From Candidatus Taylorbacteria bacterium RIFCSPLOWO2_01_FULL_48_100 (lineage in GTDB: Bacteria; Patescibacteriota; Minisyncoccia; Phycocordibacterales; UBA10002), in assembly GCA_001821135.1 (NCBI GenBank), contig MHSA01000011.1, positions 3,042-67,041 of the forward strand: a DNA stretch of 64,000 bases, written 5' to 3'. The notes below the pieces were generated by a model that was given only the letters and a program-made list of their open reading frames with translations, was not told the origin of the DNA and searched no databases. Shown here piece by piece: positions 29,733 through 40,252 of the stretch. Within the stretch, counting starts at the first letter, position 1, and every line of letters begins with the position of its first letter. The translations under genes and the position numbers were made by a program.

Positions 29733-30155
29733 ATGGCAAAGAAATTACTGCGAAAGTTGAAGTTGATTGTTCCAGGTGCGGCGGCAACGCCCGCGCCGCC
29801 TTTGGGTCCCGCTTTGGGGCAGGCGAAGGTAAACATCGGTGAGTTCGTGACTCGCTTCAATGCGGCGACGCAAAAGATGAAGGGCGAGACGCTTCCTGTG
29901 GAAGTGCATATTTTTGACGACAAGTCGTTTGACCTAAAAATAAAAGCGCCGACTGTTTCCAGTATGCTTCTCAAGGCAATCGGCAAAGAGAAAGGTGCGG
30001 GCAAGCCGCCGGTAGAAAAAGCGGGAACAATTACTAAGGCGAAATTGCGCGAAATTGCAGAAAAGAAAATGCAGGACTTGAATACAACCACAATTGAAGC
30101 CGCCGAAAAAATAGTCGCCGGTAGCGCGCTGTCTATGGGGATAGAAATTAAATAG
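29733..30155 (+). CDS. rplK: 50S ribosomal protein L11
   Basis: KLIVPGAAATPAPPLGPALGQAKVNIGEFV...FDLKIKAPTVSSMLLKA is the L11 signature. Confidence 0.9.
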   Translation: MAKKLLRKLKLIVPGAAATPAPPLGPALGQAKVNIGEFVTRFNAATQKMKGETLPVEVHIFDDKSFDLKIKAPTVSSMLLKAIGKEKGAGKPPVEKAGTITKAKLREIAEKKMQDLNTTTIEAAEKIVAGSALSMGIEIK

Positions 30156-30708
30156 CGCGTTCCAAATCAACCCACACATATCTTAATCCAGTTTTCGTGT
30201 CAGTTCTTTCTTCGCGGAATACTTCGTGCGTGAAGTCCTTGTTCCAGTCGTGGAAGAAAACATCACCCTCCGCATCGCTTTCAACGAGCGTGAGGTAGAG
30301 TTTGTCGGTGAGCGGGAGCGCTTGTTTATAAATCTCTCCGCCACCGATGATGAAGATTTCCTTTTTGTTTTCCTCCTGCCCTTTTCCAAAGGGGAGGTGT
30401 CTCCCATAGGGAGACGGAGGGGTGTCTTCTGTTTTCTGCGCAATTTGTATCGCTTCTTCAAGCGACCCCGCAACCACCACTCCTTCCTTCTTAAAATACG
30501 GATTGCGCGTTATAACGATATTTGTGCGGTTTGGAAGTGCTTTGCCGATAGAGTCAAATGTCTTTCTGCCCATAATAACCGTATGTCCAGTCGTGAGCAC
30601 CTTAAACCGCTTAAGGTCGTCCGAAATGCGCCAAAGGAGCGCGCCCGCCTTTCCAATCGCGCGATTGTTCCTCCCCACCGCGGCAATGATGCTGATGCAC
30701 GCTTCCAT
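30148..30708 (-). CDS. folA: Dihydrofolate reductase carrying a ~24-aa in-frame palindromic-repeat insertion
   Basis: ISIIAAVGRNNRAIGKAGALLW...DLKRFKVLTTGHTVIMGRKTF ... IGGGEIY are DHFR motifs. The insertion EDTPPSPYGRHLPFGKGQEENKKE is encoded by the palindromic element at 30379-30426. Confidence 0.85.
   Translation of the reverse strand: MEACISIIAAVGRNNRAIGKAGALLWRISDDLKRFKVLTTGHTVIMGRKTFDSIGKALPNRTNIVITRNPYFKKEGVVVAGSLEEAIQIAQKTEDTPPSPYGRHLPFGKGQEENKKEIFIIGGGEIYKQALPLTDKLYLTLVESDAEGDVFFHDWNKDFTHEVFREERTDTKTGLRYVWVDLERAI
30379..30426. repeat. G/C-rich palindromic repeat element, copy H (CCCTTTTCCAAAGGGG ... GTCTCCCATAGGGAGAC), in-frame inside folA
   Basis: Two inverted-repeat modules in the style of the CCCTTATCATAAGGGGG modules of copies B, C and D. 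Confidence 0.55.
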
Positions 30709-30709
30709 T

Positions 30710-31342
30710 TTATTTTACCGCATGCTCTGCTTTAAGTTTTCTTATATCACCCTTAAAGATAAGCCGTGACTCCAGTGCTCTTTCTTTTTTAATGCCTTCT
30801 ATAATGTCGCGCTTGTGGTATTTGCTCTTTCGAGGGGCGACTGGTTCGGTGAGTTCTTCAAAAACAATTTGGCATAGCCGTTCTCCCGGGTAAAGGCGGA
30901 CAATTTGCGAACTGGTGTTGTTGCGGATGGGGAGCGTCAATTGTCCTTCATATCCAGAATCAATAATCCCAGTGAGGTCAAGCGAGAGCCCTTTGCGGTT
31001 GGTAGACGAACGAGGATACAAAATCGCCATAATATCGTTCGGCACTTTTATTGATTCAAGGGTTGAGACAAGCACATATTCGTTTGGCAATAGGTCAAAA
31101 TACTGGCCTTGTTCAAGTTCTATAATCTCAAAATAGTCGGCGTTCACTTTGTCAAAATTGAGTATGTCTAGCGATTCGCGACCGCGCGCCGTGATGTGCC
31201 AGATTTTGGGAATTAGAAAGGTGAAGCCGAGCCGCAAGTCCACTGCGTGGTCTTGCAGTTGGAACGAATCCAGATTCGGCGAGAAGCCGATTTCTTTTTT
31301 TGCAACCCGCTCAAGAATTCCTTTTTTGGTCAGTATAGCCAT
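30710..31342 (-). CDS. dcd: dCTP deaminase (Dcd/dUTPase superfamily)
   Basis: MAILTKKGILERV...DLRLG...DSGYEGQLTLPIRN... gives Dcd-like length and motifs. Confidence 0.7.
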   Translation of the reverse strand: MAILTKKGILERVAKKEIGFSPNLDSFQLQDHAVDLRLGFTFLIPKIWHITARGRESLDILNFDKVNADYFEIIELEQGQYFDLLPNEYVLVSTLESIKVPNDIMAILYPRSSTNRKGLSLDLTGIIDSGYEGQLTLPIRNNTSSQIVRLYPGERLCQIVFEELTEPVAPRKSKYHKRDIIEGIKKERALESRLIFKGDIRKLKAEHAVK

Positions 31343-31354
31343 AAGTATTGTATG

Positions 31355-32191
31355 TTATAGCACAATTTTGATTCCCTTAATGTGTTCAAGCGGTTCATAT
31401 TGACTTTGCAGATTTCCAACAATTTCTTTTACAAGCTTTTTATCTTTCTTTTCAGCGCGCTCAAATGTTTTTGGCGGAAGATTCAAAATGACTTTTTTAT
31501 GCTCGTTACTCCTTCGTAAGATTTCTTCAGCTGCAAAGTAATGCGTGTCATAAATATGTGCGTTAGAGATTGAATGGCTGTATATTCCGGGTTTTACGCA
31601 GAGTCGCTCGGCAAGAATACATTGCAGAAGCGCAAAACCCGCGACATCGGAAGGAGTACCAAGTATTACATCATTTGAACGAATGATATTATGCAGATTA
31701 AGCCGCCCCCCGATTATATTAACCGTAAAGGTATATGGGCACGGCACATTTTTTTTCACCGCTCCGCCAAGTCCGTCGCCACTTGGGTCCCATGCAATAA
31801 CAACTCCATGCCGCGAACTCGGGTCCTTTTCCAAAAGTTTTACCAAAAGCCCGAGTTGGTCGCGGCCAAAATGTTTTCGCCATCGGTAGCCGTAGGCGAC
31901 TGTAACTACATCGCCGGGATTGGTGAAGTCATCCCAGATTTTGGTGAACTCGCGTAGAAAATCTTCGGGTTTGCGCCCGCCGGAGATAAACCATAGTTGT
32001 TCCGCGACAAACATCTGAATTGGAATCTTTCTGAGCGTCAGAAGCGGGAAGCCGTCTTTTTCAATATCCACGGAGAAATGCATGCCAGGAATTGCTCGCG
32101 TTTCGTGCCCAGTGCGCTTGTTCACATCGGCAATACCCTCGGTCATAATACGCCGAACCAACCCCTGATAAATCTCATCAAATTTTGTCAT
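31355..32191 (-). CDS. thyA: Thymidylate synthase ThyA (divergent: PCP instead of PCH, RSND instead of RSCD, and a C-terminal extension)
   Basis: NKRTGHETRAIPGMHFSV...FPLLTLRKIPIQMFVAEQLWFISG ... VPCPYTFTVNIIGGRLNLHNIIRSNDVILGTPSDVAGFALL are ThyA/dCMP-hydroxymethylase family motifs. It sits with folA, dcd, tmk and glyA. Confidence 0.75.
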   Translation of the reverse strand: MTKFDEIYQGLVRRIMTEGIADVNKRTGHETRAIPGMHFSVDIEKDGFPLLTLRKIPIQMFVAEQLWFISGGRKPEDFLREFTKIWDDFTNPGDVVTVAYGYRWRKHFGRDQLGLLVKLLEKDPSSRHGVVIAWDPSGDGLGGAVKKNVPCPYTFTVNIIGGRLNLHNIIRSNDVILGTPSDVAGFALLQCILAERLCVKPGIYSHSISNAHIYDTHYFAAEEILRRSNEHKKVILNLPPKTFERAEKKDKKLVKEIVGNLQSQYEPLEHIKGIKIVL

Positions 32192-32207
32192 AGCAGTTTT
32201 ATACTAT

Positions 32208-32675
32208 ATGCTGTTTCGTATGGTCATTCAATACCCATACTTACCTAGTGGAAGGGAAATAAAATATGTCTCAGAAGATAATGTGTTTATGCGCGCGGCG
32301 CGCGAATATATACACACACACAAAAAAGATATCGTTCACCCAACAGGAAGTGTGATTGTAAAAGACGAGCTTATTATTGGACGAGGCGCGAACGGAAGCG
32401 ATTATCACGAACGACACGGCTGTGAGCGGAAACGAAAGAATATCCCGACGGGCGAACGGTATGATTTATGCGAGGGATGTCATCCGAAAAATCACAGTGA
32501 ACCAAAGGCGATTGCGGACGCTATTTCTCATGGCGAAGATACGCACGGTGCGGATTTATATTTATACGGCCATTGGTGGTGCTGTAAGCCGTGTTGGGAC
32601 GCAATGATTGACGCAGGTATTCGCGATGTGTATCTTATGGAAGGAAGCGAACGGATATTCAACAGTAAAAGGTGA
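32208..32675 (+). CDS. dCMP (cytidine/deoxycytidylate) deaminase, zinc-dependent
   Basis: HSEPKAIADAI (HxE) and CKPCWDAM (PCxxC) zinc-binding motifs. The start is uncertain (32208 or 32220). Confidence 0.7.
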   Translation: MLFRMVIQYPYLPSGREIKYVSEDNVFMRAAREYIHTHKKDIVHPTGSVIVKDELIIGRGANGSDYHERHGCERKRKNIPTGERYDLCEGCHPKNHSEPKAIADAISHGEDTHGADLYLYGHWWCCKPCWDAMIDAGIRDVYLMEGSERIFNSKR

Positions 32676-33307
32676 TTATGAAAAATAAAAAAGGAAAGTT
32701 CTTTGTACTTGAAGGCGGCGAGGGTTCGGGGAAAAGTAGCCAGCTTAAGAAATTAAGCGAGTATTTTGGCGAGCGTGTTTTGATAACACGCGAACCCGGC
32801 GGCTCTCCTTATGCCGAAGAAATTCGTTCACTTATCCTCAATTCAGAAAACGCGAAACAAGCTGACGCGAAAACCCATTTTGCTCTGTTCTGGGCAGCAC
32901 GGGCAGACCATTTGAAAAACACCATTCTTCCGGCTTTAGCGCGAAGACAAAATGTTCTTGTGGACCGATTTGATTCGTCTACTTATGCGTATCAAGTTTT
33001 TGCGCAAGAAGCATCTGAACTAAAAGATTTTTTCTGGAAGATGCGGCAGTTTTATCTAGGTAAAAATATCCCAAGTAGATATTTTTTTCTTGATGTAGAA
33101 CCAAGTATCGGCTTGGCGCGCAAACAAAAACAAAAAAGAGAAGTATTAAATCATTTTGACGAACGCGATGTGCAATTTCATACACGAATGCGCAAAGGAT
33201 TTCTTGATTTTTTTAAACAAGTCCCATACTCCACGATTGACGCCAATCAACCATTTGATACCGTAACCATGACGCTTGTAACCGAACTGAAAAAATATAT
33301 TATATAA
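32672..33307 (+). CDS. tmk: Thymidylate kinase
   Basis: FFVLEGGEGSGKSSQ P-loop, ITREPGGS, and DRFDSSTYAYQ (DRY-like) motif. Confidence 0.9.
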   Translation: MIMKNKKGKFFVLEGGEGSGKSSQLKKLSEYFGERVLITREPGGSPYAEEIRSLILNSENAKQADAKTHFALFWAARADHLKNTILPALARRQNVLVDRFDSSTYAYQVFAQEASELKDFFWKMRQFYLGKNIPSRYFFLDVEPSIGLARKQKQKREVLNHFDERDVQFHTRMRKGFLDFFKQVPYSTIDANQPFDTVTMTLVTELKKYII

Positions 33308-33310
33308 ACA

Positions 33311-34498
33311 ATGAAAGACCTACAAATCAAAAAATTGATGGATGCCGAGAAAAAGCGGCAGAAAAGCGTGATTAACCTAATTGCCTCGGAAAATTATGTT
33401 TCCAAAGATGTGCTTGAGGCACTTGGAAGCGAGCTCACCAATAAATACGGCGAAGGGTATCCTGGTAAACGCTACTATCGCGGGTGCGCGGTTGTTGACG
33501 AGGTAGAGCGCGCAGCGCGGAAGCGCGCGCTTGATTTGTTTGGGCTTACCGAAAAAGAATGGGGAGTTAATGTGCAACCATTATCGGGTTCGCCCGCCAA
33601 CTTCGCAGTGTATGCTGCACTTGTTCCAATTGGTGGAAAGGTGATGGGTATGTCGCTTGACCACGGCGGACACCTCACTCACGGCCAGCCCGTTTCTATG
33701 ACTGGAAAGGTGTGGAAGCAAGTGCCGTACGGATTGGATAAGGAAACCGAAAGATTGGATTACGAACACATTAAAAAGATTGCGACAGAAAACAAGCCCG
33801 CTCTTATCGTTGCGGGTTTTACTGCATACGCGCACATCATTGATTTTAAGAAGTTTCGCGAAATCGCGGATTTATGCAACGCGATTTTAATGGTAGATAT
33901 GTCGCATTTTGCTGGGCTAGTTGCAGGTGGAGAGTATCCATCGCCGTTTGCATATGCGGACATTGTAACGACGACAACTCACAAAACTCTACGAGGACCG
34001 CGCTCGGCGCTCATTTTCTCAAAAGAAGACGAACGAAAGTTGCCTAGAAAAATTGATAAAGCAATTCTACCAGGATTGCAGGGCGGTCCGCACTTCAACC
34101 AAATTGCGGCGGTGGCGGTGGCGCTCAAAGAGGCGAGTACGCCTTCGTTTAAGAAATACGCGGCGCAAGTGGTAAAGAACGCGCGCGCGCTCGCGGATGA
34201 ATTGCAAAAGCTCGGACACAGGATTGTAGAAGGCGGAACGGAAACGCACCTCTTGCGCATTGACACTTGGCTCGGCGGCCGCGGAATCGGGGGGCGGGAA
34301 GCCGCCGACAAACTTGAGGCGGCGGGGATTATCGTGAGTGAAAGCACTCTTCCATTTGATACGCGCGGTCCGGTAGACCCATCGGGCATACGGCTCGGCA
34401 GTGCGGCAGAGACCACGCGTGGCAAAAAAGAGAAGGACTTTATAGCAATCGCGCGGAAAGTTGATAGAATACTCCGTAATGGTAACAGAGAGCATTAA
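33311..34498 (+). CDS. glyA: Serine hydroxymethyltransferase
   Basis: LIASENYVSKDVLEALGSELTNKYGEGYPGKRYY ... VTTTTHKTLRGPR (PLP lysine region). Confidence 0.95.
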   Translation: MKDLQIKKLMDAEKKRQKSVINLIASENYVSKDVLEALGSELTNKYGEGYPGKRYYRGCAVVDEVERAARKRALDLFGLTEKEWGVNVQPLSGSPANFAVYAALVPIGGKVMGMSLDHGGHLTHGQPVSMTGKVWKQVPYGLDKETERLDYEHIKKIATENKPALIVAGFTAYAHIIDFKKFREIADLCNAILMVDMSHFAGLVAGGEYPSPFAYADIVTTTTHKTLRGPRSALIFSKEDERKLPRKIDKAILPGLQGGPHFNQIAAVAVALKEASTPSFKKYAAQVVKNARALADELQKLGHRIVEGGTETHLLRIDTWLGGRGIGGREAADKLEAAGIIVSESTLPFDTRGPVDPSGIRLGSAAETTRGKKEKDFIAIARKVDRILRNGNREH

Positions 34499-36152
34499 AC
34501 AGGCGGTTGCGGAAGCACTCACAAAACTTGGGATTAAAAATCCCGATGTGTCGTTGGAACACCCAGAGGAATTGTCGCACGGCGATTATTCCACGAATGT
34601 TGCGCTTCGGTATGCGAAAGAACTTAAAAAAAGCCCGCAGACAATCGCAGAAGATATAATACGATATATCGTACTACAGAAGATTCCAGCACTTGCGCGC
34701 GCGGAAGCGGCGGCAGGTTTTGTGAACTTTTTTCTCGCCGGAGAATTCTTTGCGGAACGAATACAAGAGATTTTGGAAAAGAAAGATGGTTTTGGAAAGC
34801 AGGATGTTGGAAAGGGAAGGAAAGTGGTTGTAGAATTTTCGTCTCCGAACATTGCAAAGCCGTTTACGATTGGGCATTTGCGCTCAACAATTATCGGAGA
34901 CGCAGTTGCGAAAACGCTCTCTTTTCTAGGATATTCTGTTATCCGCGACAATCACCTCGGTGATTGGGGTACGCAATTCGGAAAAATGATTGTTGCGATT
35001 AAGAAGTGGGGAGATATTCAGAAAATTGCAGAAAACGCGGCTCCTGTTAGAGCGTTGGTGGATTTGTATGTCTGTTTTCACGCTGAAGCAAAAACGAACA
35101 TCGCGCTTGAAGATGAGGCGCGTGAGTGGTTTGTGAAATTGGAGAAAGGAGATGAAGAAGCGCGCGGTTTGTGGAAGCAGTGCGTAGCGTGGTCAATGAA
35201 GGAGTTTGAGTCGCTGTACAAACGGCTTGGCGTTTCTTTTGATACGATGCATGGAGAGAGTTTTTTTGAAGATAAAATGCGCGCTGTGGTGGAGGATCTT
35301 GAACGGAAAAATCTCTTAAAAGAAAGCGAAGGCGCGCGGCTTGTATTTTTTCCTAGCGATTCCTTGCCGCCGCTTATGATAATAAAAAAAGACGGCGGGA
35401 CATTGTACGCGACTCGCGACCTGGCGACTGATGCATGGAGGAAAAGAGAGTATGGCGACGGGGTAATTATCGTCAATGAGACGGGCGGAGAGCAATCGCT
35501 GTATTTCAAGCAGGTTTTTATGCTGGAAGAAATGCTCGGCTGGTTTGCGCGCGGCGAGCGGGTGCACATCGGGCACGGGCTCACGCGTGGGAAAGAAGGG
35601 AAGATGAGCACGCGGGAGGGCAACACGATTTGGCTTGAAGATGTGCTTGACGAGGCAGTGAAGCGCGCGGAAGCAATAAATAAAGAGACGGCAGAAATAG
35701 TTGGAATCGGCGCGCTTAAGTTTAACGACTTGAAGCGGGAGGCGAAACAAGACACCATTTTTGATTGGAATGATGTGCTGAATATGAAAGGCGACTCTGG
35801 ACCGTACTTGCAGTATTCTTATGCGCGGGCAATGTCGGTAATCAGAAAATCCCCTCCTCAGTTGAGGAGGGGTGCCGAGTTCGCGAGGCGGGGTGGTGGT
35901 GTTACTACATTAGAACGCCTCCTTTACCGATTTCCTGAAGTCGTACTGCGCGCGGGCAAGGACTACGCGCCGCATTTTATTGCGACTTATCTTATTGAAT
36001 TAGCGGGCGCGTTTAACAATTGGTATGCGAAGGAGCGCATTCTTAATGCTGGGGAGGAAACGGAATACCGCCTCGCGCTCACCGCCGCATTCGCGCAGGT
36101 TATGAAAAATGGACTTTGGCTACTTGGCATCGCCGCGCCGGAGAAGATGTAA
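34479..36152 (+). CDS. argS: Arginine--tRNA ligase carrying a ~19-aa in-frame palindromic-repeat insertion near residue 455
   Basis: SSPNIAKPFTIGHLRSTIIGDA (HIGH-like), GDWGTQFGKMI, and a C-terminal DALR domain. The insertion SPPQLRRGAEFARRGGGVT is encoded by repeat copy G. Confidence 0.9.
   Translation: MVTESIKQAVAEALTKLGIKNPDVSLEHPEELSHGDYSTNVALRYAKELKKSPQTIAEDIIRYIVLQKIPALARAEAAAGFVNFFLAGEFFAERIQEILEKKDGFGKQDVGKGRKVVVEFSSPNIAKPFTIGHLRSTIIGDAVAKTLSFLGYSVIRDNHLGDWGTQFGKMIVAIKKWGDIQKIAENAAPVRALVDLYVCFHAEAKTNIALEDEAREWFVKLEKGDEEARGLWKQCVAWSMKEFESLYKRLGVSFDTMHGESFFEDKMRAVVEDLERKNLLKESEGARLVFFPSDSLPPLMIIKKDGGTLYATRDLATDAWRKREYGDGVIIVNETGGEQSLYFKQVFMLEEMLGWFARGERVHIGHGLTRGKEGKMSTREGNTIWLEDVLDEAVKRAEAINKETAEIVGIGALKFNDLKREAKQDTIFDWNDVLNMKGDSGPYLQYSYARAMSVIRKSPPQLRRGAEFARRGGGVTTLERLLYRFPEVVLRAGKDYAPHFIATYLIELAGAFNNWYAKERILNAGEETEYRLALTAAFAQVMKNGLWLLGIAAPEKM
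35846..35903. repeat. G/C-rich palindromic repeat element, copy G (AAATCCCCTCCTCAGTTGAGGAGGGGTGCCGAGTTCGCGAGGCGGGGTGGTGGTGTT), in-frame inside argS
   Basis: Shares the AAATCCCCTCCTCA(A/G)(C/T)TGAGGAGG module with copies E and F. Confidence 0.65.
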
Positions 36153-36159
36153 AATATAT

Positions 36160-39100
36160 ATGAACACAGACAATCAACAACAAAAAAAGACGATTGCCGA
36201 GAAAGAGAAAGAAATCTTGAAGTTTTGGAAAGAAAACAGGGTTTTTGAAAAAACATTGGAGAAAAAAGCTCCAAAAGGCGATTTCGTTTTTTACGACGGG
36301 CCGCCGTTTGCGACGGGGCTCCCGCACCACGGCTCGCTCCTCTCGTCTGTCATTAAAGATGTAGTACCGCGCTACAAGACAATGCGCGGGTTCCGCGTCG
36401 AGAGGCGGTGGGGGTGGGACTGCCACGGGCTTCCGATTGAGAGCTTGGTAGAAAAACGGCTTGGACTTAAAACGAAAAAAGACATTGAAAAAATCGGCGT
36501 TGCGGCGTTCAACGAAGCGGCGCGCGAGAGCGTGCTTGAATTTGAGAAAGAGTGGGAGAAATATATTGAACGGGTTGGGCGGTTTGTTGATTTCAAGAAC
36601 TCCTACAAGACGATGGACAACTCTTATATGGAGAGCGTGTGGGGCGCGCTGAAAAAGCTTCACGAAAAGAAATTGCTATACGAAGGAAAGAAAGTGCTTA
36701 TGTATTGCCCGCACTGTGAGACCCCGCTCGCAAAAGCGGAAATCGCGATGGATAATACCTATAAGAAAATTACTGAGGAGGCAGTTACTGTGAAGTTTAA
36801 GGTCAAAAATGAACCAAATACACATCTTTTGGCGTGGACGACGACGCCGTGGACATTGCCGGGGAATGTCGCTCTTGCTGTCGGTAAAAAGATTGTCTAT
36901 GTAAAAGCAAAAGTTGGTAGCGAGATTTTTATTATTGCAAAAGACCGTTTGGAAATATTGGATGGAAAACAATATGAAATTATTGAAGAGGTTGTCGGTA
37001 AAGATTTGGTGGGCTTGGAATACGAACCAGTTTACGGAGTACCTAAAATACTTAAACAATTTAAAATAAATGCAATTGAGCCGCATCGTATTCTTGAGGC
37101 AGGGTTTGTAAATACCAATGAGGGTACAGGAATTGTACACATTGCGCCAGCATACGGAGAAGAAGATTATCAGTTAGCGGGTCGCAATGATTTACCAATA
37201 GTGCAACTACTTGATGCTGGCGCGAAGTACAACGATAGCGCGCCTGAATTTTTGCGCTGTAAGTATGTAAAGAGCGCGGAAAAAGAAATAAAAGAGGATT
37301 TGGAAAAGCGCGCGTTTTTGTTTGCGCGCGCGATGAATACGCACGAGTACCCGCACTGTTACCGATGCGGCACCCCACTGATTTACAATGCGGTCCCGTC
37401 ATGGTTTATCGCTATACAAGATGCGAAAAAGAAGATGCTTTCGGAGAACGAAAAGATACAATGGGTGCCTGAGCACCTGAAGCATGGGCGCTTCAAGAAC
37501 ATCGTTGAAGGCGCGCCCGATTGGAACATTTCGCGAAGCCGCTTTTGGGCAACGCCATTGCCGATTTGGAAAGAAAAAGGTGGCGAGCGCGTAATGGTTG
37601 TTGGCTCGCTTGAAGAACTAAAAAAGCGCGTGAAAAAGTCGGGCAATCAATATTTTGTAATGCGGCATGGCGAGGCGGTAGATAATGCTGAACATAAAGA
37701 AGACATTTATGGCGACCCGCAGAATCATCTAACTGATAAAGGAAAGAAAGGTGCTGTGCATACAGCCGCTAATCTTAAAAAGGAGCGTATTGACCTCATT
37801 ATCACCTCGCCATTTGTGCGCACGCGCGAAACCGCTCTGCTTATCCAAAAAGAGCTCGGATTGTCGGACGATACGGTGGTAGTTGATGAACGCTTACACG
37901 AGCGCAACGAGCCGACCTTAGTAGAAGTGCGTCGGCGCGTGGGCGAATTCTTGTTTGAAATAGAGCGCCGCGAGCAAAACAAAAACATACTTATTGTCGG
38001 ACACGGCAGTCCGCTTTGGGTTTTGTCCCAAGTTGCGGAAGGCAAACCGTCGGACGATTTTCAAGACAGAGTGATGTTGGAACTTGCCAAAGCGCGCGCG
38101 CTTCCGTTTATTCCGTTTCCACATAACAAGGACTATGAGATTGATTTACACCGTCCGTGGATTGATGCACTGACGCTTGTTGATGAAGGTGGGAGAGAAT
38201 ACGAGCGCATTCCGGAAGTGGTTGATTGTTGGGTGGAATCGGCAGCGATGCCGTTTGCGTCCGGCACTGCGAAATACCCTGCGGACTTTATTGCAGAGTA
38301 TATTGCGCAAACGCGCACTTGGTTTTACTACCTCCACGCGCTCGGCATTTTGCTTGTGGGCAAGCGAGCGTTTAACGCAGTCGTGTCTACAGGAACGCTT
38401 CTCGCAGAAGATGGCGCAAAGATTTCTAAATCAAAAGGCAACTACACCGACCCGTTTCTTCTTATGGACAAGTATGGCGCAGATGCGTACCGCTTTTACC
38501 TTATGGGAAGCGTGGTGATGCAAGGCGAGGACCTTTCTTTTCGCGATAGCGATGTGCGCGAAGCGCACAATCGCGTTGTCGGAATACTCCGCAACTGCCT
38601 CGCTTTTTTTGAGTTGTATAAAAATAAATATGACGGAAATACGAAGGCGGAAGAAAGCGCGCACATTTTGGATAAATGGATTCGCGCGCACCTTAGGCGG
38701 AGTACGGCAGTAATTACGGATGCGATGGAGGCGTACGACACGCCTTCCGCATGCCGCGAGATTCGTGCGTTCACAGAAGATTATTCTACATGGTACATTC
38801 GCCGCTCGCGCGAACGGGTGAAGTCCGCCTCTTCTGCGGACGAGGCAGGTAGCGCTGACGCGCAACACTGCCTCGCAACCCAACGCGAAGTTCTTCTCGC
38901 GCTCTCAAAACTCATTGCGCCGATAATGCCGTTCTTGGCGGAGGAGATATATAAATCGGTTGACGGAGAAAAAGAGAGCGTGCATCTAGACGGATGGCCG
39001 GAAGTCGGAAGTCGAAAGTCGGAAGAAAAATTGTTTGAAGAAATGGAAAAAGTGAGGAAGATTGTGTCGCTCGCGCTGGAAGCGCGTGCGAAGGCGAATA

Positions 39101-39522
39101 TCAAAATACGGCAACCACTCGCTTTGCTCAAAATCCGAAATCCGAAATCCGAAATCCGAAATAAACCAGAATTACTTAATTTAATAAACGAAGAAATAAA
39201 TGTTAAGAAAATAATTTTTGATGAAGAAGTTGCAGGAGAAGTGGAATTAGATACAGCGATAACGCCAGAACTAAAAGAAGAAGGCGAGTTTCGCGGGCTT
39301 TTGCGCGCGGTACAGAATTTGCGCAAGAAAAAAGGTCTCACCATTTCCGATGTTGCAACGCTTCTTGTGGACACGAGCGCGGATGGCAAAAGGTTTGTTG
39401 AAAAGTTTTCAAGTGAACTCAAAAAATCCGCATTACTCAAAGATATTGAGTTTGTTTCGGTTGCGTATGGGGAAGCGGTTGCTGTTGGCGAACATACAGC
39501 CAAACTTGACATTCGGAAGTGA
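36160..39522 (+). CDS. ileS: Isoleucine--tRNA ligase with a ~165-aa histidine-phosphatase (PGM/SixA-like) domain inserted inside the catalytic core
   Basis: HIGH (PHHG), WNISRSRFWATPLPIW, DCWVESAAMPF and KMSKS (KISKSKG) are all present in order. Between PIW and DLHRPW lies YFVMRHGEAVDN ... ITSPFVRTRETALLI ... ILIVGHGSPLWVL, the RHG / SP.RA.ET / GHG motifs of the histidine phosphatase superfamily. Confidence 0.9.
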   Translation: MNTDNQQQKKTIAEKEKEILKFWKENRVFEKTLEKKAPKGDFVFYDGPPFATGLPHHGSLLSSVIKDVVPRYKTMRGFRVERRWGWDCHGLPIESLVEKRLGLKTKKDIEKIGVAAFNEAARESVLEFEKEWEKYIERVGRFVDFKNSYKTMDNSYMESVWGALKKLHEKKLLYEGKKVLMYCPHCETPLAKAEIAMDNTYKKITEEAVTVKFKVKNEPNTHLLAWTTTPWTLPGNVALAVGKKIVYVKAKVGSEIFIIAKDRLEILDGKQYEIIEEVVGKDLVGLEYEPVYGVPKILKQFKINAIEPHRILEAGFVNTNEGTGIVHIAPAYGEEDYQLAGRNDLPIVQLLDAGAKYNDSAPEFLRCKYVKSAEKEIKEDLEKRAFLFARAMNTHEYPHCYRCGTPLIYNAVPSWFIAIQDAKKKMLSENEKIQWVPEHLKHGRFKNIVEGAPDWNISRSRFWATPLPIWKEKGGERVMVVGSLEELKKRVKKSGNQYFVMRHGEAVDNAEHKEDIYGDPQNHLTDKGKKGAVHTAANLKKERIDLIITSPFVRTRETALLIQKELGLSDDTVVVDERLHERNEPTLVEVRRRVGEFLFEIERREQNKNILIVGHGSPLWVLSQVAEGKPSDDFQDRVMLELAKARALPFIPFPHNKDYEIDLHRPWIDALTLVDEGGREYERIPEVVDCWVESAAMPFASGTAKYPADFIAEYIAQTRTWFYYLHALGILLVGKRAFNAVVSTGTLLAEDGAKISKSKGNYTDPFLLMDKYGADAYRFYLMGSVVMQGEDLSFRDSDVREAHNRVVGILRNCLAFFELYKNKYDGNTKAEESAHILDKWIRAHLRRSTAVITDAMEAYDTPSACREIRAFTEDYSTWYIRRSRERVKSASSADEAGSADAQHCLATQREVLLALSKLIAPIMPFLAEEIYKSVDGEKESVHLDGWPEVGSRKSEEKLFEEMEKVRKIVSLALEARAKANIKIRQPLALLKIRNPKSEIRNKPELLNLINEEINVKKIIFDEEVAGEVELDTAITPELKEEGEFRGLLRAVQNLRKKKGLTISDVATLLVDTSADGKRFVEKFSSELKKSALLKDIEFVSVAYGEAVAVGEHTAKLDIRK

Positions 39523-39661: not shown

Positions 39662-40252
39662 ATGTATCACCTCTATCACACCCCCGCGTTGGTTCTCGGA
39701 AGCTCGCCGACTGGCGAAGGAAGCCGCACTGTGGAACTTTTTACGCGGGAACTCGGATTAGTTTCAGCGCGCGCGCAAGGCGTGCGCCTTGCGCGTTCTA
39801 AACTCCGCTATCACTTGACCGATTTTTCCTACACCGATGCGTGGCTTGTGCGCGGGCGCGAAGTGTGGCGGCTTGCAAACGCCGTGTCGCGCGCGAATTT
39901 CTTCTCGGAACTTGTGGGGGATTCCGCCGCGCGCGCGGTTCTCGCGCGCGCGGCGCTGCTTCTGCGGCGACTCCTTCCGCCCGAAGAAAAGCATGAAAAG
40001 CTTTTTGACGCCGTTGTGTCGTGCGCTGCGTTTTTTCAGAGCCGCACCTGTTCGGCGGGTGAATTTCGCGATATTGAGATTTTGCTCGCGCTTCGCATTT
40101 TGTTCCACTTGGGTTACTTAGGTGAGCCGAAAGAATTTTTGGAAGTCGCGGCTGGCGAGAGTTTCGGTGCGTTTGAGATTTCGTCAATTGCGCCGCTTCG
40201 GCGTCAGTTGGTTTCAATAATAAATTCGTCTCTGCGAATAACTGGTTTGTGA
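39662..40252 (+). CDS. recO: DNA repair protein RecO
   Basis: Has the N-terminal OB-fold pattern ALVLGSSPTGEGSRTVELFTRELGLVSARAQGVR.ARSKL typical of RecO. Confidence 0.7.
   Translation: MYHLYHTPALVLGSSPTGEGSRTVELFTRELGLVSARAQGVRLARSKLRYHLTDFSYTDAWLVRGREVWRLANAVSRANFFSELVGDSAARAVLARAALLLRRLLPPEEKHEKLFDAVVSCAAFFQSRTCSAGEFRDIEILLALRILFHLGYLGEPKEFLEVAAGESFGAFEISSIAPLRRQLVSIINSSLRITGL

What the first reader, a model, noticed from the sequence alone, without database searches (positions are those of the whole stretch)
37640..38130. Isoleucyl-tRNA synthetase with an embedded histidine-phosphatase (PGM/SixA-like) domain
IleRS usually has a short (~30-90 aa) connector between the WNISRQR...PIW segment and the DLHRP/DVWF(E)SG segment. 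Here about 165 aa are inserted, and they carry all three hallmark motifs of the histidine phosphatase superfamily (RHGE...N; SPxxRxxETA; and a GHG catalytic His) in the correct order and spacing. The aaRS core motifs (HIGH, KMSKS) are intact around it. To my knowledge a phosphatase domain fused inside an aaRS catalytic core is not a described architecture. It could act on aminoacyl-adenylate, on tRNA 2',3'-cyclic or 3'-phosphate ends, or on a regulatory phosphohistidine.
Basis: partly seen in the sequence, partly recalled or inferred. Interest (0 to 1): 0.7.

Follow-up and report, generated by a model that had tools for sequence, protein, structure and literature searches.

The report
Phosphatase domain nested inside isoleucyl-tRNA synthetase
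The housekeeping isoleucyl-tRNA synthetase of this uncultured (Parcubacteria-type) bacterium really does carry an intact-looking histidine-phosphatase domain in a surface loop of its catalytic core; hundreds of related species share this arrangement, and others have a separate phosphatase gene directly in front of ileS, but what the phosphatase acts on is unknown.

Summary

New here: the closest stand-alone relatives (about 190 aa) are encoded directly upstream of an insert-less ileS in 43 of 51 informative loci, in the order argS-HP-ileS-recO. Nested and stand-alone forms interleave in a rough HP tree. HP domains occur at three or more different IleRS loops, in up to four tandem copies, and are swapped or lost among close relatives. 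One relative is fused to TsaC instead.

So the phosphatase looks active and is repeatedly tied to IleRS. Its substrate is unknown and no characterised equivalog threshold is met. I found no paper on it. HIGH reads HHGS, not a canonical HIGH.

The parts
36160..39522 (+). ileS gene: type-2 isoleucyl-tRNA synthetase with a nested phosphatase domain. The longest ORF starts at 36109 and overlaps argS; the likely true start is 36160.
36325..36336 (+). HIGH signature motif, here HHGS (fourth His replaced by Ser)
36838..37140 (+). Core of the CP1 editing domain, from the TTTPWT motif to the GTGIVH motif
   Evidence: Read directly from the sequence; invariant columns
37522..37548 (+). WNISRSRFW, the CP2-CP3 linker that lines the tRNA CCA pocket in yeast IleRS. 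CP3 begins here.
37633..38121 (+). Nested histidine-phosphatase domain (ORF residues 509-671). It is the short form, lacking the cap segment after the catalytic Glu.
37663..37671 (+). RHG motif: Arg519 and the nucleophilic His520
37807..37836 (+). SPFVRTRETA motif with the second phosphate-binding Arg571
37900..37902 (+). Glu598, the predicted proton donor (LxE motif)
37999..38007 (+). GHG motif with the second catalytic His632
38122..38241 (+). Second half of CP3 (PHN...DLHRPWID...) through DCWVES, where the chain re-enters the Rossmann fold. The Zn-knuckle cysteines of CP3 are absent here.
38419..38433 (+). KMSKS signature motif, here KISKS
34461..36152 (+). argS, the upstream neighbour. In related lineages a stand-alone phosphatase gene lies between argS and ileS.
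39662..40252 (+). recO, the downstream neighbour in the conserved order argS-(HP)-ileS-recO

Best explanation
This is the cell's housekeeping type-2 IleRS, and it has become a two-enzyme protein. A complete branch-1 histidine-phosphatase (HP) domain of the PhoE/PspA/CobC kind is nested in a loop of the CP3 subdomain. That loop lies just after the CP2-CP3 linker, which in yeast IleRS lines the tRNA CCA pocket.

Shown: the domain is real and is predicted with high confidence as a separate folded HP domain. Its catalytic set (Arg, His nucleophile, Arg, Glu, His) is nearly invariant across the clade. The same HP subfamily is tied to ileS in two ways. In some lineages it is a separate gene immediately upstream of an insert-less ileS (argS-HP-ileS-recO). 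In others it is a domain nested inside IleRS, at three or more different loops and in one to four copies.

Inferred: the nested form arose, probably more than once, by capture of the neighbouring gene. Selection favours keeping an active phosphatase physically or stoichiometrically coupled to IleRS.

Guess (low confidence): it removes a terminal phosphate from a small molecule linked to adenylate-forming chemistry, such as pyrophosphate or a nucleotide phosphomonoester. It is not a step of aminoacylation. One relative is fused to TsaC, another ATP-to-AMP-plus-PPi enzyme of the tRNA pathway, which is the only hint towards this substrate class.
For: Domain identity and fold:
- Pfam PF00300 E=1.4e-22.
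- The insert profile matches PhoE 1ebb at 4.9e-26 and PspA 4ij5 at 2.3e-25.
- AlphaFold pLDDT is 89 for the whole protein, about 95 over the insert, and 91.8 for the domain alone.

Catalytic conservation:
- R519, H520, R571, E598 and H632 are at 98-99% in a 121-sequence alignment in which one sequence lacks the insert. They are invariant in a diverse set of 20.
- Most tandem copies keep the motifs by a pattern search, which missed some.

Spread:
- 119 of the best 120 homologues carry PF00300.
- 390 clusters at 50% identity score E<=1e-30.
- 539 GTDB species match the junction pattern, and 80 of 80 fetched loci hold an intact ORF.

Link to ileS:
- Six of six informative stand-alone relatives lie next to an insert-less ileS.
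- Of 56 stand-alone genes in metagenome loci, 43 have ileS immediately downstream and 6 have it elsewhere in the locus; only 2 have none.
- Every fusion runs IleRS-N, then HP, then IleRS-C. No end-to-end fusion was seen, although a stop-codon loss would make one.
- 108 HP domains sit at CP3, 3 at a second loop and 4 at a third.
- A nested HP (L130) is 78% identical to a stand-alone HP (L140), while the two IleRS bodies are 44-53% identical.
- A TsaC-HP fusion exists.
Against: - No substrate is assigned. No NCBIfam equivalog cut-off is reached by the insert, by long-form inserts or by stand-alone relatives.
- A 75%-identical relative (P0014) lacks the insert and has no phosphatase gene in the 20 kb around ileS, so the domain is dispensable for aminoacylation in that lineage.
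- HP domains at three different loops, one of them in the anticodon-binding domain, argue against any mechanism that needs a fixed position near the synthetic site.
- Gene order is broadly conserved in these genomes (recO is also always adjacent), so adjacency alone is weak evidence of shared function.
- The insert diverges faster than the scaffold: 51% against 62% mean identity.
- The TsaC fusion is a single cluster representative.
- The window copy lacks the cap that shapes the substrate pocket in small-molecule HP enzymes.
- I could not read model coordinates, so the distance from the HP active site to the IleRS sites is unknown.
Confidence: 0.5

Rival explanations
1. Passenger phosphatase. 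The HP is an ordinary housekeeping phosphatase with no mechanistic link to IleRS. Its gene happened to lie next to ileS, local duplication and deletion events dropped copies into permissive surface loops, and the fusions persist because they are harmless or merely ensure co-expression.
For: - HP domains sit at three different loops, so no fixed geometry is needed.
- The domain is lost without local replacement in P0014.
- The insert evolves faster than the scaffold.
- Conserved synteny also includes the functionally unrelated recO and DUF11 genes.
- Its closest characterised relatives are small-molecule phosphatases.
Against: - In-frame nesting of a whole domain is rare. Seeing it at three or more sites, in several HP lineages and in tandem arrays suggests selection for fusion.
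- No ArgRS fusion was found, although argS is equally adjacent.
- No simple N-terminal fusion was found, although one mutation would make it.
- The architecture is kept in at least 539 species.
Confidence: 0.28
2. Macromolecule-directed phosphatase. The domain removes a blocking phosphate from tRNA(Ile), for example a 3'-phosphate, cyclic phosphate or pyrophosphate on the CCA end, or from phosphorylated IleRS itself. It would then be a repair or anti-toxin module working in cis.
For: - The main insertion site is in CP3, next to the CP2-CP3 linker that lines the CCA pocket in yeast IleRS.
- The window-type short form has lost the cap, leaving a SixA-like minimal domain, and SixA acts on a protein substrate (SixA biology from my own knowledge).
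- Presence/absence variation, copy-number change and cassette swapping resemble conflict-driven modules.
Against: - Sites 2 and 3 and the tandem arrays cannot all reach one tRNA phosphate.
- TsaC, the other fusion partner, does not bind tRNA ends (own knowledge).
- I know of no HP-superfamily enzyme that acts on RNA ends.
- A general tRNA repair enzyme would not be expected on IleRS alone.
Confidence: 0.12
3. Non-catalytic module. The HP fold serves as a phosphate or metabolite sensor, or as a structural spacer that tunes IleRS, and does not turn over substrate.
For: HP-fold pseudoenzymes and scaffolds are among the fold-search hits (TFIIIC tau55, flea acid phosphatase pseudoenzyme). CP3 is used for protein docking in human IARS1.
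Against: The full catalytic set, including the proton-donor Glu, is 98-99% conserved over hundreds of lineages and kept in most tandem copies. Binding alone rarely preserves the nucleophile and the acid together.
Confidence: 0.07
4. The insert is the organism's cofactor-dependent phosphoglycerate mutase, a glycolytic enzyme carried on IleRS.
For: Weak matches to dPGM models: dPGM_arch 47.8 bits for the window copy and up to about 100 bits for relatives.
Against: - All scores are far below the cut-off of 225 bits.
- The segment after the catalytic Glu, which in dPGM carries the distal substrate-binding residues, is deleted in the window copy.
- The second His is followed by G-x-P, not the dPGM G-N (dPGM residues from my own knowledge of E. 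coli GpmA).
Confidence: 0.02
5. Artefact or selfish element: an assembly chimera, or an intein-like in-frame mobile element.
For: Presence/absence among close relatives and several insertion sites.
Against: - The same architecture appears in hundreds of independent assemblies with intact ORFs.
- There is no GC break.
- There is no splicing nucleophile at either junction, and the 'PHN' at the C-junction belongs to the scaffold, since it is kept in insert-less P0014.
- No nuclease or integrase function is detectable.
Confidence: 0.01

Closest known systems
Broad-specificity and metabolite phosphatases of histidine-phosphatase branch 1: PhoE (G. stearothermophilus, 1EBB/1H2E), phosphoserine phosphatase PspA (4IJ5), alpha-ribazole phosphatase CobC, riboflavin-pathway phosphatase 9MMH
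   Different: About 22-27% identity. No curated family threshold is reached. The domain is nested in another enzyme, and the window copy lacks the cap segment.
SixA phosphohistidine phosphatase
   Different: The sequence match is weak: TIGR00249 scores 41.2 bits against a cut-off of 74.5, and the profile E-value is 9.5e-7 against 5e-26 for PhoE. The small size here comes from a secondary deletion within a PhoE-like lineage.
Type-2 (eukaryote-like, mupirocin-resistant type) IleRS, e.g. Priestia megaterium IleRS2 (8C8U/8C8V) and T. thermophilus IleRS (1ILE)
   Same: Best sequence and fold matches: E=4.4e-202 by sequence and Foldseek E=6e-79. It shares the type-2 C-terminal domains, the editing domain and KMSKS.
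   Different: It has 163 extra residues inside CP3, has lost the CP3 Zn-knuckle cysteines, and reads HxGS instead of HxGH and AQTRTWF instead of DQTRGWF.
NCBIfam NF040702 'isoleucine--tRNA ligase, N-acetyltransferase domain-containing' (ileS_w_GNAT)
   Same: A precedent for an IleRS that carries an extra catalytic domain. One relative found here (P0223) has HP plus GNAT in the same protein.
   Different: The window protein has no GNAT and scores 294.6 bits against a cut-off of 1999.
Bifunctional RNase H / acid phosphatase (Rv2228c type, NCBIfam NF005567)
   Same: An HP domain of the CobC/PhoE kind fused to a nucleic-acid enzyme. It is among the best NCBIfam matches for long-form inserts, at 80-105 bits.
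   Different: That protein is an end-to-end fusion with a different partner, and the threshold of 326 bits is not met.
CP1 editing domain of class Ia synthetases
   Same: Conceptually the same arrangement: a second catalytic domain nested in a connective peptide of the Rossmann fold.
   Different: The fold is unrelated and the chemistry is ester hydrolysis. CP1 is universal in IleRS/ValRS/LeuRS, whereas the HP module is lineage-restricted, variable in site and copy number, and dispensable.

Membership tests
Histidine phosphatase superfamily, branch 1 (Pfam PF00300) | Profile match above the curated threshold | tested here: met
   80.7 bits against a cut-off of 21.7, E=1.4e-22
Histidine phosphatase superfamily, branch 1 (Pfam PF00300) | RHG motif with the nucleophilic His, second Arg, acid (Glu) and second His, in order | tested here: met
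   R519-H520-G521, R571, E598, H632. They are 98-99% conserved in 121 aligned sequences and invariant in a diverse set of 20.
Histidine phosphatase superfamily, branch 1 (Pfam PF00300) | Alpha/beta HP fold | tested here: met
Histidine phosphatase superfamily, branch 1 (Pfam PF00300) | Phosphatase activity through a phosphohistidine intermediate | not testable with these tools
   Needs an enzyme assay of wild type against H520A
Cofactor-dependent phosphoglycerate mutase (dPGM) | Equivalog profile thresholds, distal substrate-binding residues after the catalytic Glu, and G-N after the second His | tested here: not met
   dPGM_arch scores 47.8 bits against 225, and TIGR01258 reaches 25-41 bits against its cut-off of 81.7 in long-form inserts and stand-alone relatives. 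The cap segment is deleted, and the motif is H-G-x-P.
SixA phosphohistidine phosphatase (TIGR00249) | Equivalog profile threshold | tested here: not met
   41.2 bits against a cut-off of 74.5
PspA phosphoserine phosphatase / CobC alpha-ribazole phosphatase / GpmB | Equivalog profile thresholds | tested here: not met
   For the window insert: PspA 40 against 350, CobC 39.1 against 162.9, GpmB 40.6 against 261. Long forms and stand-alone relatives also fall below every cut-off.
Isoleucyl-tRNA synthetase (TIGR00392) | Equivalog profile threshold | tested here: met
   802.6 bits against a cut-off of 621.4
Isoleucyl-tRNA synthetase (TIGR00392) | Class I signature motifs HIGH and KMSKS | tested here: inconclusive
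   KISKS is present and invariant. HIGH reads HHGS, and across HP-bearing relatives the counts are HxGS 133, HxGH 36 and HxGN 11. The effect on catalysis is untested.
Isoleucyl-tRNA synthetase (TIGR00392) | CP1 editing domain with Thr-rich and GTG(I/V)VH motifs | tested here: met
   WTTTPWT and GTGIVH are present and conserved. That these are the motifs of the editing site comes from my own knowledge.
Type-2 IleRS (IleRS2) | Closer to IleRS2 and eukaryotic enzymes than to IleRS1; type-2 C-terminal domains | tested here: met
   8c8u E=4.4e-202 against 1ffy E=2e-83; DUF5915 C-terminal domain; Foldseek top hits are IleRS2.
MupA/MupB acquired mupirocin-resistance IleRS | NCBIfam exception-model thresholds | tested here: not met
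   672.7 and 669.6 bits against a cut-off of 1900
ileS_w_GNAT (NF040702) | Profile threshold and a GNAT domain | tested here: not met
   294.6 bits against a cut-off of 1999; no GNAT match in Pfam
Intein or other self-splicing insert | Nucleophile (Cys/Ser/Thr) at both junctions and a terminal HN belonging to the insert | tested here: not met
   The junctions read ...KKRV|KKSGN... and ...PFP|HNKD.... The PHN is kept in insert-less P0014, so it belongs to the scaffold.

The most novel reading that the evidence does not exclude
The HP module is a third catalytic site of an aminoacyl-tRNA synthetase with a role in translation. It would clear a phosphorylated by-product or blocker of the IleRS reaction, such as pyrophosphate, a nucleotide phosphomonoester or a phosphorylated tRNA end. 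Patescibacteria would have selected this coupling repeatedly, first as an argS-HP-ileS operon partner and then by nesting the domain at several IleRS loops. That would make it a new class of accessory aaRS activity alongside editing.
Probability: 0.3. Interest if true: 0.85.

Novelty: new variant of a known kind. Interest (0 to 1): 0.6.

Why it matters
Synthetases are textbook examples of enzymes that gain function through inserted domains, the editing domain being the classic case. Here a second, unrelated catalytic domain is nested in the catalytic core of an essential synthetase across a large branch of the candidate phyla radiation.

The evolutionary trail is unusually clear: a neighbouring gene, a nested domain, tandem arrays, swapped cassettes and losses. 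If the phosphatase serves translation, it reveals a new accessory activity of a synthetase. It would also say something about how ultra-small, host-dependent bacteria manage nucleotides, pyrophosphate or damaged tRNA.

If it is only a passenger, it is still a rare natural series showing how whole domains get inserted into permissive loops of an essential enzyme. There is also a practical point: some stand-alone phosphatases are already mis-named 'isoleucyl-tRNA synthetase' in one source through annotation transfer from the fused proteins.

Tried and rejected
- Assembly chimera: rejected.
- Intein-like element: rejected from the junctions and the insert-less homologue.
- dPGM, SixA, PspA, CobC or GpmB identity: none reaches its curated cut-off.
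- Compensation in the insert-less relative P0014. Its locus has an HD-domain (YfbR-like) gene and a CofD gene between glyA and argS that the window lacks. This is a single case with no supporting link, so I did not pursue it.
- A link between the HxGS motif and the insert. P0014 has HxGS without an insert, and 36 HP-bearing enzymes keep HxGH, so it is a clade trait rather than a correlate.
- ArgRS-HP fusions: none among the best 149 representatives.
- End-to-end HP-IleRS fusions: none. The apparent 'N-terminal HP' proteins of 650-710 aa have IleRS sequence only downstream of the HP and look like gene-call fragments that start inside the insert.
- The insert-only word-based search found only four proteins, because of that tool's word filter. 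The full-length and profile searches were needed.
- Literature searches for IleRS plus histidine phosphatase, aaRS plus CPR, and Patescibacteria plus IleRS found nothing relevant. Two recent IleRS evolution and structure papers do not mention it.
- Foldseek against AFDB was unavailable.
- Model coordinates are not exposed, so I could not measure the position of the HP active site relative to the synthetic and editing sites.
- Names for stand-alone clusters: the cluster look-up returned none.
Full report
**1. What is in the window.**
The finding lies in one long ORF, 36109..39522 on the + strand, 1137 aa. The first ATG overlaps the end of argS. Homologue N-termini align to the second Met, at 36160, 8 nt after the argS stop, so that is the likely start.

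The protein is an isoleucyl-tRNA synthetase: NCBIfam TIGR00392 scores 802.6 bits against a cut-off of 621.4. It is of type 2. Its best solved relative by sequence is Priestia megaterium IleRS2 (8c8u, E=4.4e-202), against 2e-83 for the S. aureus type-1 enzyme. A Foldseek search of the full-length model gives the same ranking.

Pfam splits the catalytic-domain match in two around a His_Phos_1 match (PF00300, E=1.4e-22, 80.7 bits, cut-off 21.7). In the pairwise alignment to 8c8u, the query jumps from residue 491 to 655 (numbering from M18) while the PDB chain runs on from 478 to 480. The insert is therefore 163 aa, ORF residues 509-671, window 37633..38121.

GC content does not change across the insert. 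One correction: KMSKS is KISKS, but HIGH reads HHGS.

**2. Not an artefact, and a folded domain.**
- Among the 120 best full-length homologues (53-78% identity), 119 carry PF00300. They come from MAGs named Parcubacteria, Paceibacterota, Kaiser-, Adler- and Zambryskibacteria, and Minisyncoccia.
- A profile of the insert finds 390 clusters (at 50% identity) with E<=1e-30 in a 1.84-billion-protein library.
- A scan of one genome per GTDB species with the junction pattern K[KR]SGNxY[FLI][VLI]M finds 539 species that encode a relative. All 80 loci fetched hold one intact ORF, about 1,100 aa where the contig covers the whole gene, with the domain around residue 500. These include the Parcubacteria genome RAAC4_OD1_1.
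- AlphaFold2 models the whole protein with mean pLDDT 89.2 (pTM 0.82) and the insert at about 95. The isolated domain gives pLDDT 91.8.
- By sequence profile the order is the same: PhoE 4.9e-26, PspA 2.3e-25, SixA only 9.5e-7.

**3. Anatomy.**
The insertion point is in CP3. The motif WNISRSRFW (37522..37548) corresponds to the yeast 'linker CP2-3' (ARDWNVSRNRYWG), which forms part of the pocket for the tRNA 3' end. CP3 follows it and leads back into the second half of the Rossmann fold (PMC7955072 and PMC7191050). CP3 is a variable, exposed subdomain that human IARS1 uses to dock LARS1 (PMC13439101).

In T. thermophilus and in some relatives found here, CP3 is a Cys4 zinc knuckle. The window protein has lost those cysteines.

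The HP domain comes in two length classes. The long form, with a domain segment of about 203 aa in 80 of 120 homologues, has the usual ExxxGxxEG cap region. The short form, about 170 aa in 39 of 120 and the one in the window, has that cap deleted right after the catalytic Glu.

**4. Is the phosphatase likely to be active?**
In an alignment of the window protein with its 120 homologues, one of which lacks the insert, the conservation is: R519 98%, H520 99%, G521 95%, N526 93%, S567/P568 99%/98%, R571 99%, E598 99%, R610 96%, H632 98%. In a diverse subset of 20, RHG, R571, E598 and H632 are invariant.

This is the complete catalytic apparatus of the superfamily, so I infer an active enzyme. No assay exists. 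No characterised subfamily can be assigned: dPGM, SixA, PspA, CobC, GpmB and the RNase H/acid phosphatase models all score far below their curated cut-offs. That holds for the window insert, for long-form inserts and for stand-alone relatives. dPGM is further excluded because the segment that carries its distal substrate-binding residues is missing.

**5. The link to ileS goes beyond this fusion.**
Among the best 149 representatives of the insert profile, 109 have IleRS sequence on one or both sides. About 25 are genuine stand-alone proteins of about 190 aa.

I looked up where the stand-alone proteins are encoded. In six of six informative cases the gene lies next to an insert-less type-2 ileS. 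Five lie directly upstream on the same strand, separated by one to about 120 nt or overlapping. One is convergent. argS lies upstream in the four cases where that flank could be identified, and recO lies a gene or so downstream in the two loci long enough to show it. That is the window's own gene order with the phosphatase moved outside ileS.

A larger sample gives the same answer. Of 80 metagenome loci retrieved with a stand-alone profile, 24 are nested forms and 56 are stand-alone. Among the 56:
- 43 have ileS starting immediately downstream;
- 6 have ileS elsewhere in the fetched locus;
- 5 end at the contig edge;
- 2 show no ileS.

The stand-alone family is large, with at least 1,811 database proteins at E<=1e-20. 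Where named, sources call it 'histidine phosphatase family protein [Patescibacteria / Staskawiczbacteria]' or 'PhoE'. Two of the listed members are named 'isoleucyl-tRNA synthetase', evidently by transfer from fused proteins.

**6. The association is dynamic.**
- A rough neighbour-joining tree interleaves nested and stand-alone domains.
- The nested domain of L130 is 78% identical to the stand-alone protein of L140, although their IleRS bodies are only 44-53% identical. L100 and L104 show 65% against 48-52%.
- Within the window's own IleRS clade (scaffold 71-79% identical) there are four states. The window-type short domain is 74-80% identical. P0012 has a long domain only 42% identical. P0013 has an unrelated HP lineage (25%) that arrives with a Cys4 CP3. 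P0014 has no insert at all.
- On average the insert is 51% identical to the window's, against 62% for the scaffold.
- Every fusion runs IleRS-N, then HP, then IleRS-C. I found no end-to-end fusion, although losing the stop codon of the upstream gene would create one.
- Of the mapped nested domains, 108 sit at the CP3 site. Three sit in the loop after SGxMPxA, and four sit in a loop of the anticodon-binding domain. P0151 and P0251 use those two other sites and have an uninterrupted CP3.
- Some enzymes hold two to four HP copies, and most copies keep the catalytic motifs by a pattern search.
- One relative (P0223) adds a GNAT domain. NCBI already curates a family of GNAT-bearing IleRS.
- One representative (P0182) is a Sua5/YrdC (TsaC)-HP fusion away from ileS.
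- No ArgRS fusion was seen.

**7. Interpretation.**
Shown: a real, clade-wide, structurally autonomous histidine-phosphatase domain with an intact catalytic set is nested in CP3 of the housekeeping IleRS. The same subfamily is genetically tied to ileS either as the immediately upstream gene or as a nested domain.

Inferred: nesting arose by capture of the neighbour, for example by local duplication followed by deletions, with a functional ileS copy present throughout. It probably happened more than once, and modules are exchanged by recombination. The repeated fixation of in-frame nesting at several loops, always in IleRS and never in the equally adjacent ArgRS, suggests that selection favours coupling an active phosphatase to IleRS.

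The variety of sites, the tandem copies and the clean loss in P0014 argue against a mechanism that needs a precise position next to the synthetic site. They show that the domain is accessory to aminoacylation.

My working guess, with low confidence, is removal of a terminal phosphate from a small molecule tied to adenylate-forming chemistry, such as PPi or a nucleotide monoester. The only specific hint is the TsaC fusion, since TsaC also converts ATP to an acyl-AMP plus PPi. That the superfamily can hydrolyse phosphoanhydrides (E. coli AppA) is from my own knowledge.

The main rival is a passenger phosphatase with no mechanistic coupling. A tRNA-end or protein phosphatase, and a non-catalytic sensor, rank lower.

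**8. Novelty.**
I found no paper that describes the architecture. Two recent IleRS structure and evolution papers do not mention it. The sequences are public and automatically annotated, so this is an unstudied variant rather than an unseen one. I class it as a new variant of a known kind: a class Ia synthetase with an accessory domain.

**9. Limits.**
- No coordinates were available from the models, so inter-domain geometry is unknown.
- The tree is a quick distance tree.
- Whole-genome co-occurrence, for example with pyrophosphatase genes, could not be tested.
- The TsaC fusion is a single cluster representative.

Noticed in passing
window 36325..36336: The HIGH signature of this IleRS reads HHGS. 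Among HP-bearing relatives with a detectable motif the counts are HxGS 133, HxGH 36 and HxGN 11. The insert-less relative P0014 is also HxGS, so it is a clade trait. The DQTRGWF motif is likewise AQTRTWF. Non-canonical HIGH motifs in IleRS2 have been linked to mupirocin hyper-resistance (PMC10485003).
   Followed up: partly
proteins P0125, P0145, P0151, P0155, P0161, P0197, P0251: Some Patescibacteria IleRS carry two to four histidine-phosphatase domains, in tandem at CP3 or spread over two other loops. That gives proteins of up to about 1,470 aa, and most copies keep the catalytic motifs.
   Followed up: partly
protein P0223: An IleRS fragment with an HP domain followed by a GNAT acetyltransferase domain, plus an in-frame IS200-like Y1 transposase match inside the editing-domain region. 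NCBIfam has a curated 'ileS_w_GNAT' family. Patescibacterial IleRS seems to accept foreign domains often.
   Followed up: no
protein P0182, locus L174 977..2140: A Sua5/YrdC (TsaC, t6A pathway) domain fused to an HP domain of the same 'SGNxYF' subfamily. It is encoded away from ileS, between a P-type ATPase gene and an unannotated gene.
   Followed up: partly
proteins P0308 and P0337: Stand-alone phosphatases of 189-197 aa with only PF00300 are named 'isoleucyl-tRNA synthetase' by one source. This looks like annotation transfer from the fused proteins.
   Followed up: no
locus L001 3937..8848: In a syntenic contig from another metagenome, an IS605 OrfB-like gene and a cas1 gene lie between argS and ileS. 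ileS with its HP insert is broken into several gene calls there, probably by sequencing frameshifts.
   Followed up: no
window 30148..34498: A compact thymidylate-cycle cluster lies just upstream of argS-ileS: DHFR, dCTP deaminase, thymidylate synthase, dCMP deaminase, thymidylate kinase and SHMT.
   Followed up: no
locus L083 6634..8310: The close relative whose IleRS lacks the insert has two extra genes between glyA and argS: an HD-domain YfbR-like phosphohydrolase and a CofD-like protein. Both are absent from the 64-kb window. Whether either replaces the lost phosphatase is unknown.
   Followed up: partly
window 36109..36160: The longest ileS ORF starts 44 nt inside argS. Homologue alignments point to the ATG at 36160, so gene callers may over-extend the N-terminus by 17 residues.
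   Followed up: yes
window 38122..38241 compared with loci L130, L100, L154 and protein P0013: The CP3 zinc-knuckle cysteines (PIWxCxxC ... CxxC) are kept in some HP-bearing IleRS but replaced by KEKGG / VDEGG in the window's clade. P0013, otherwise 71% identical, has the Cys4 version together with a different HP lineage. That suggests CP3 and HP are exchanged as one cassette.
   Followed up: partly
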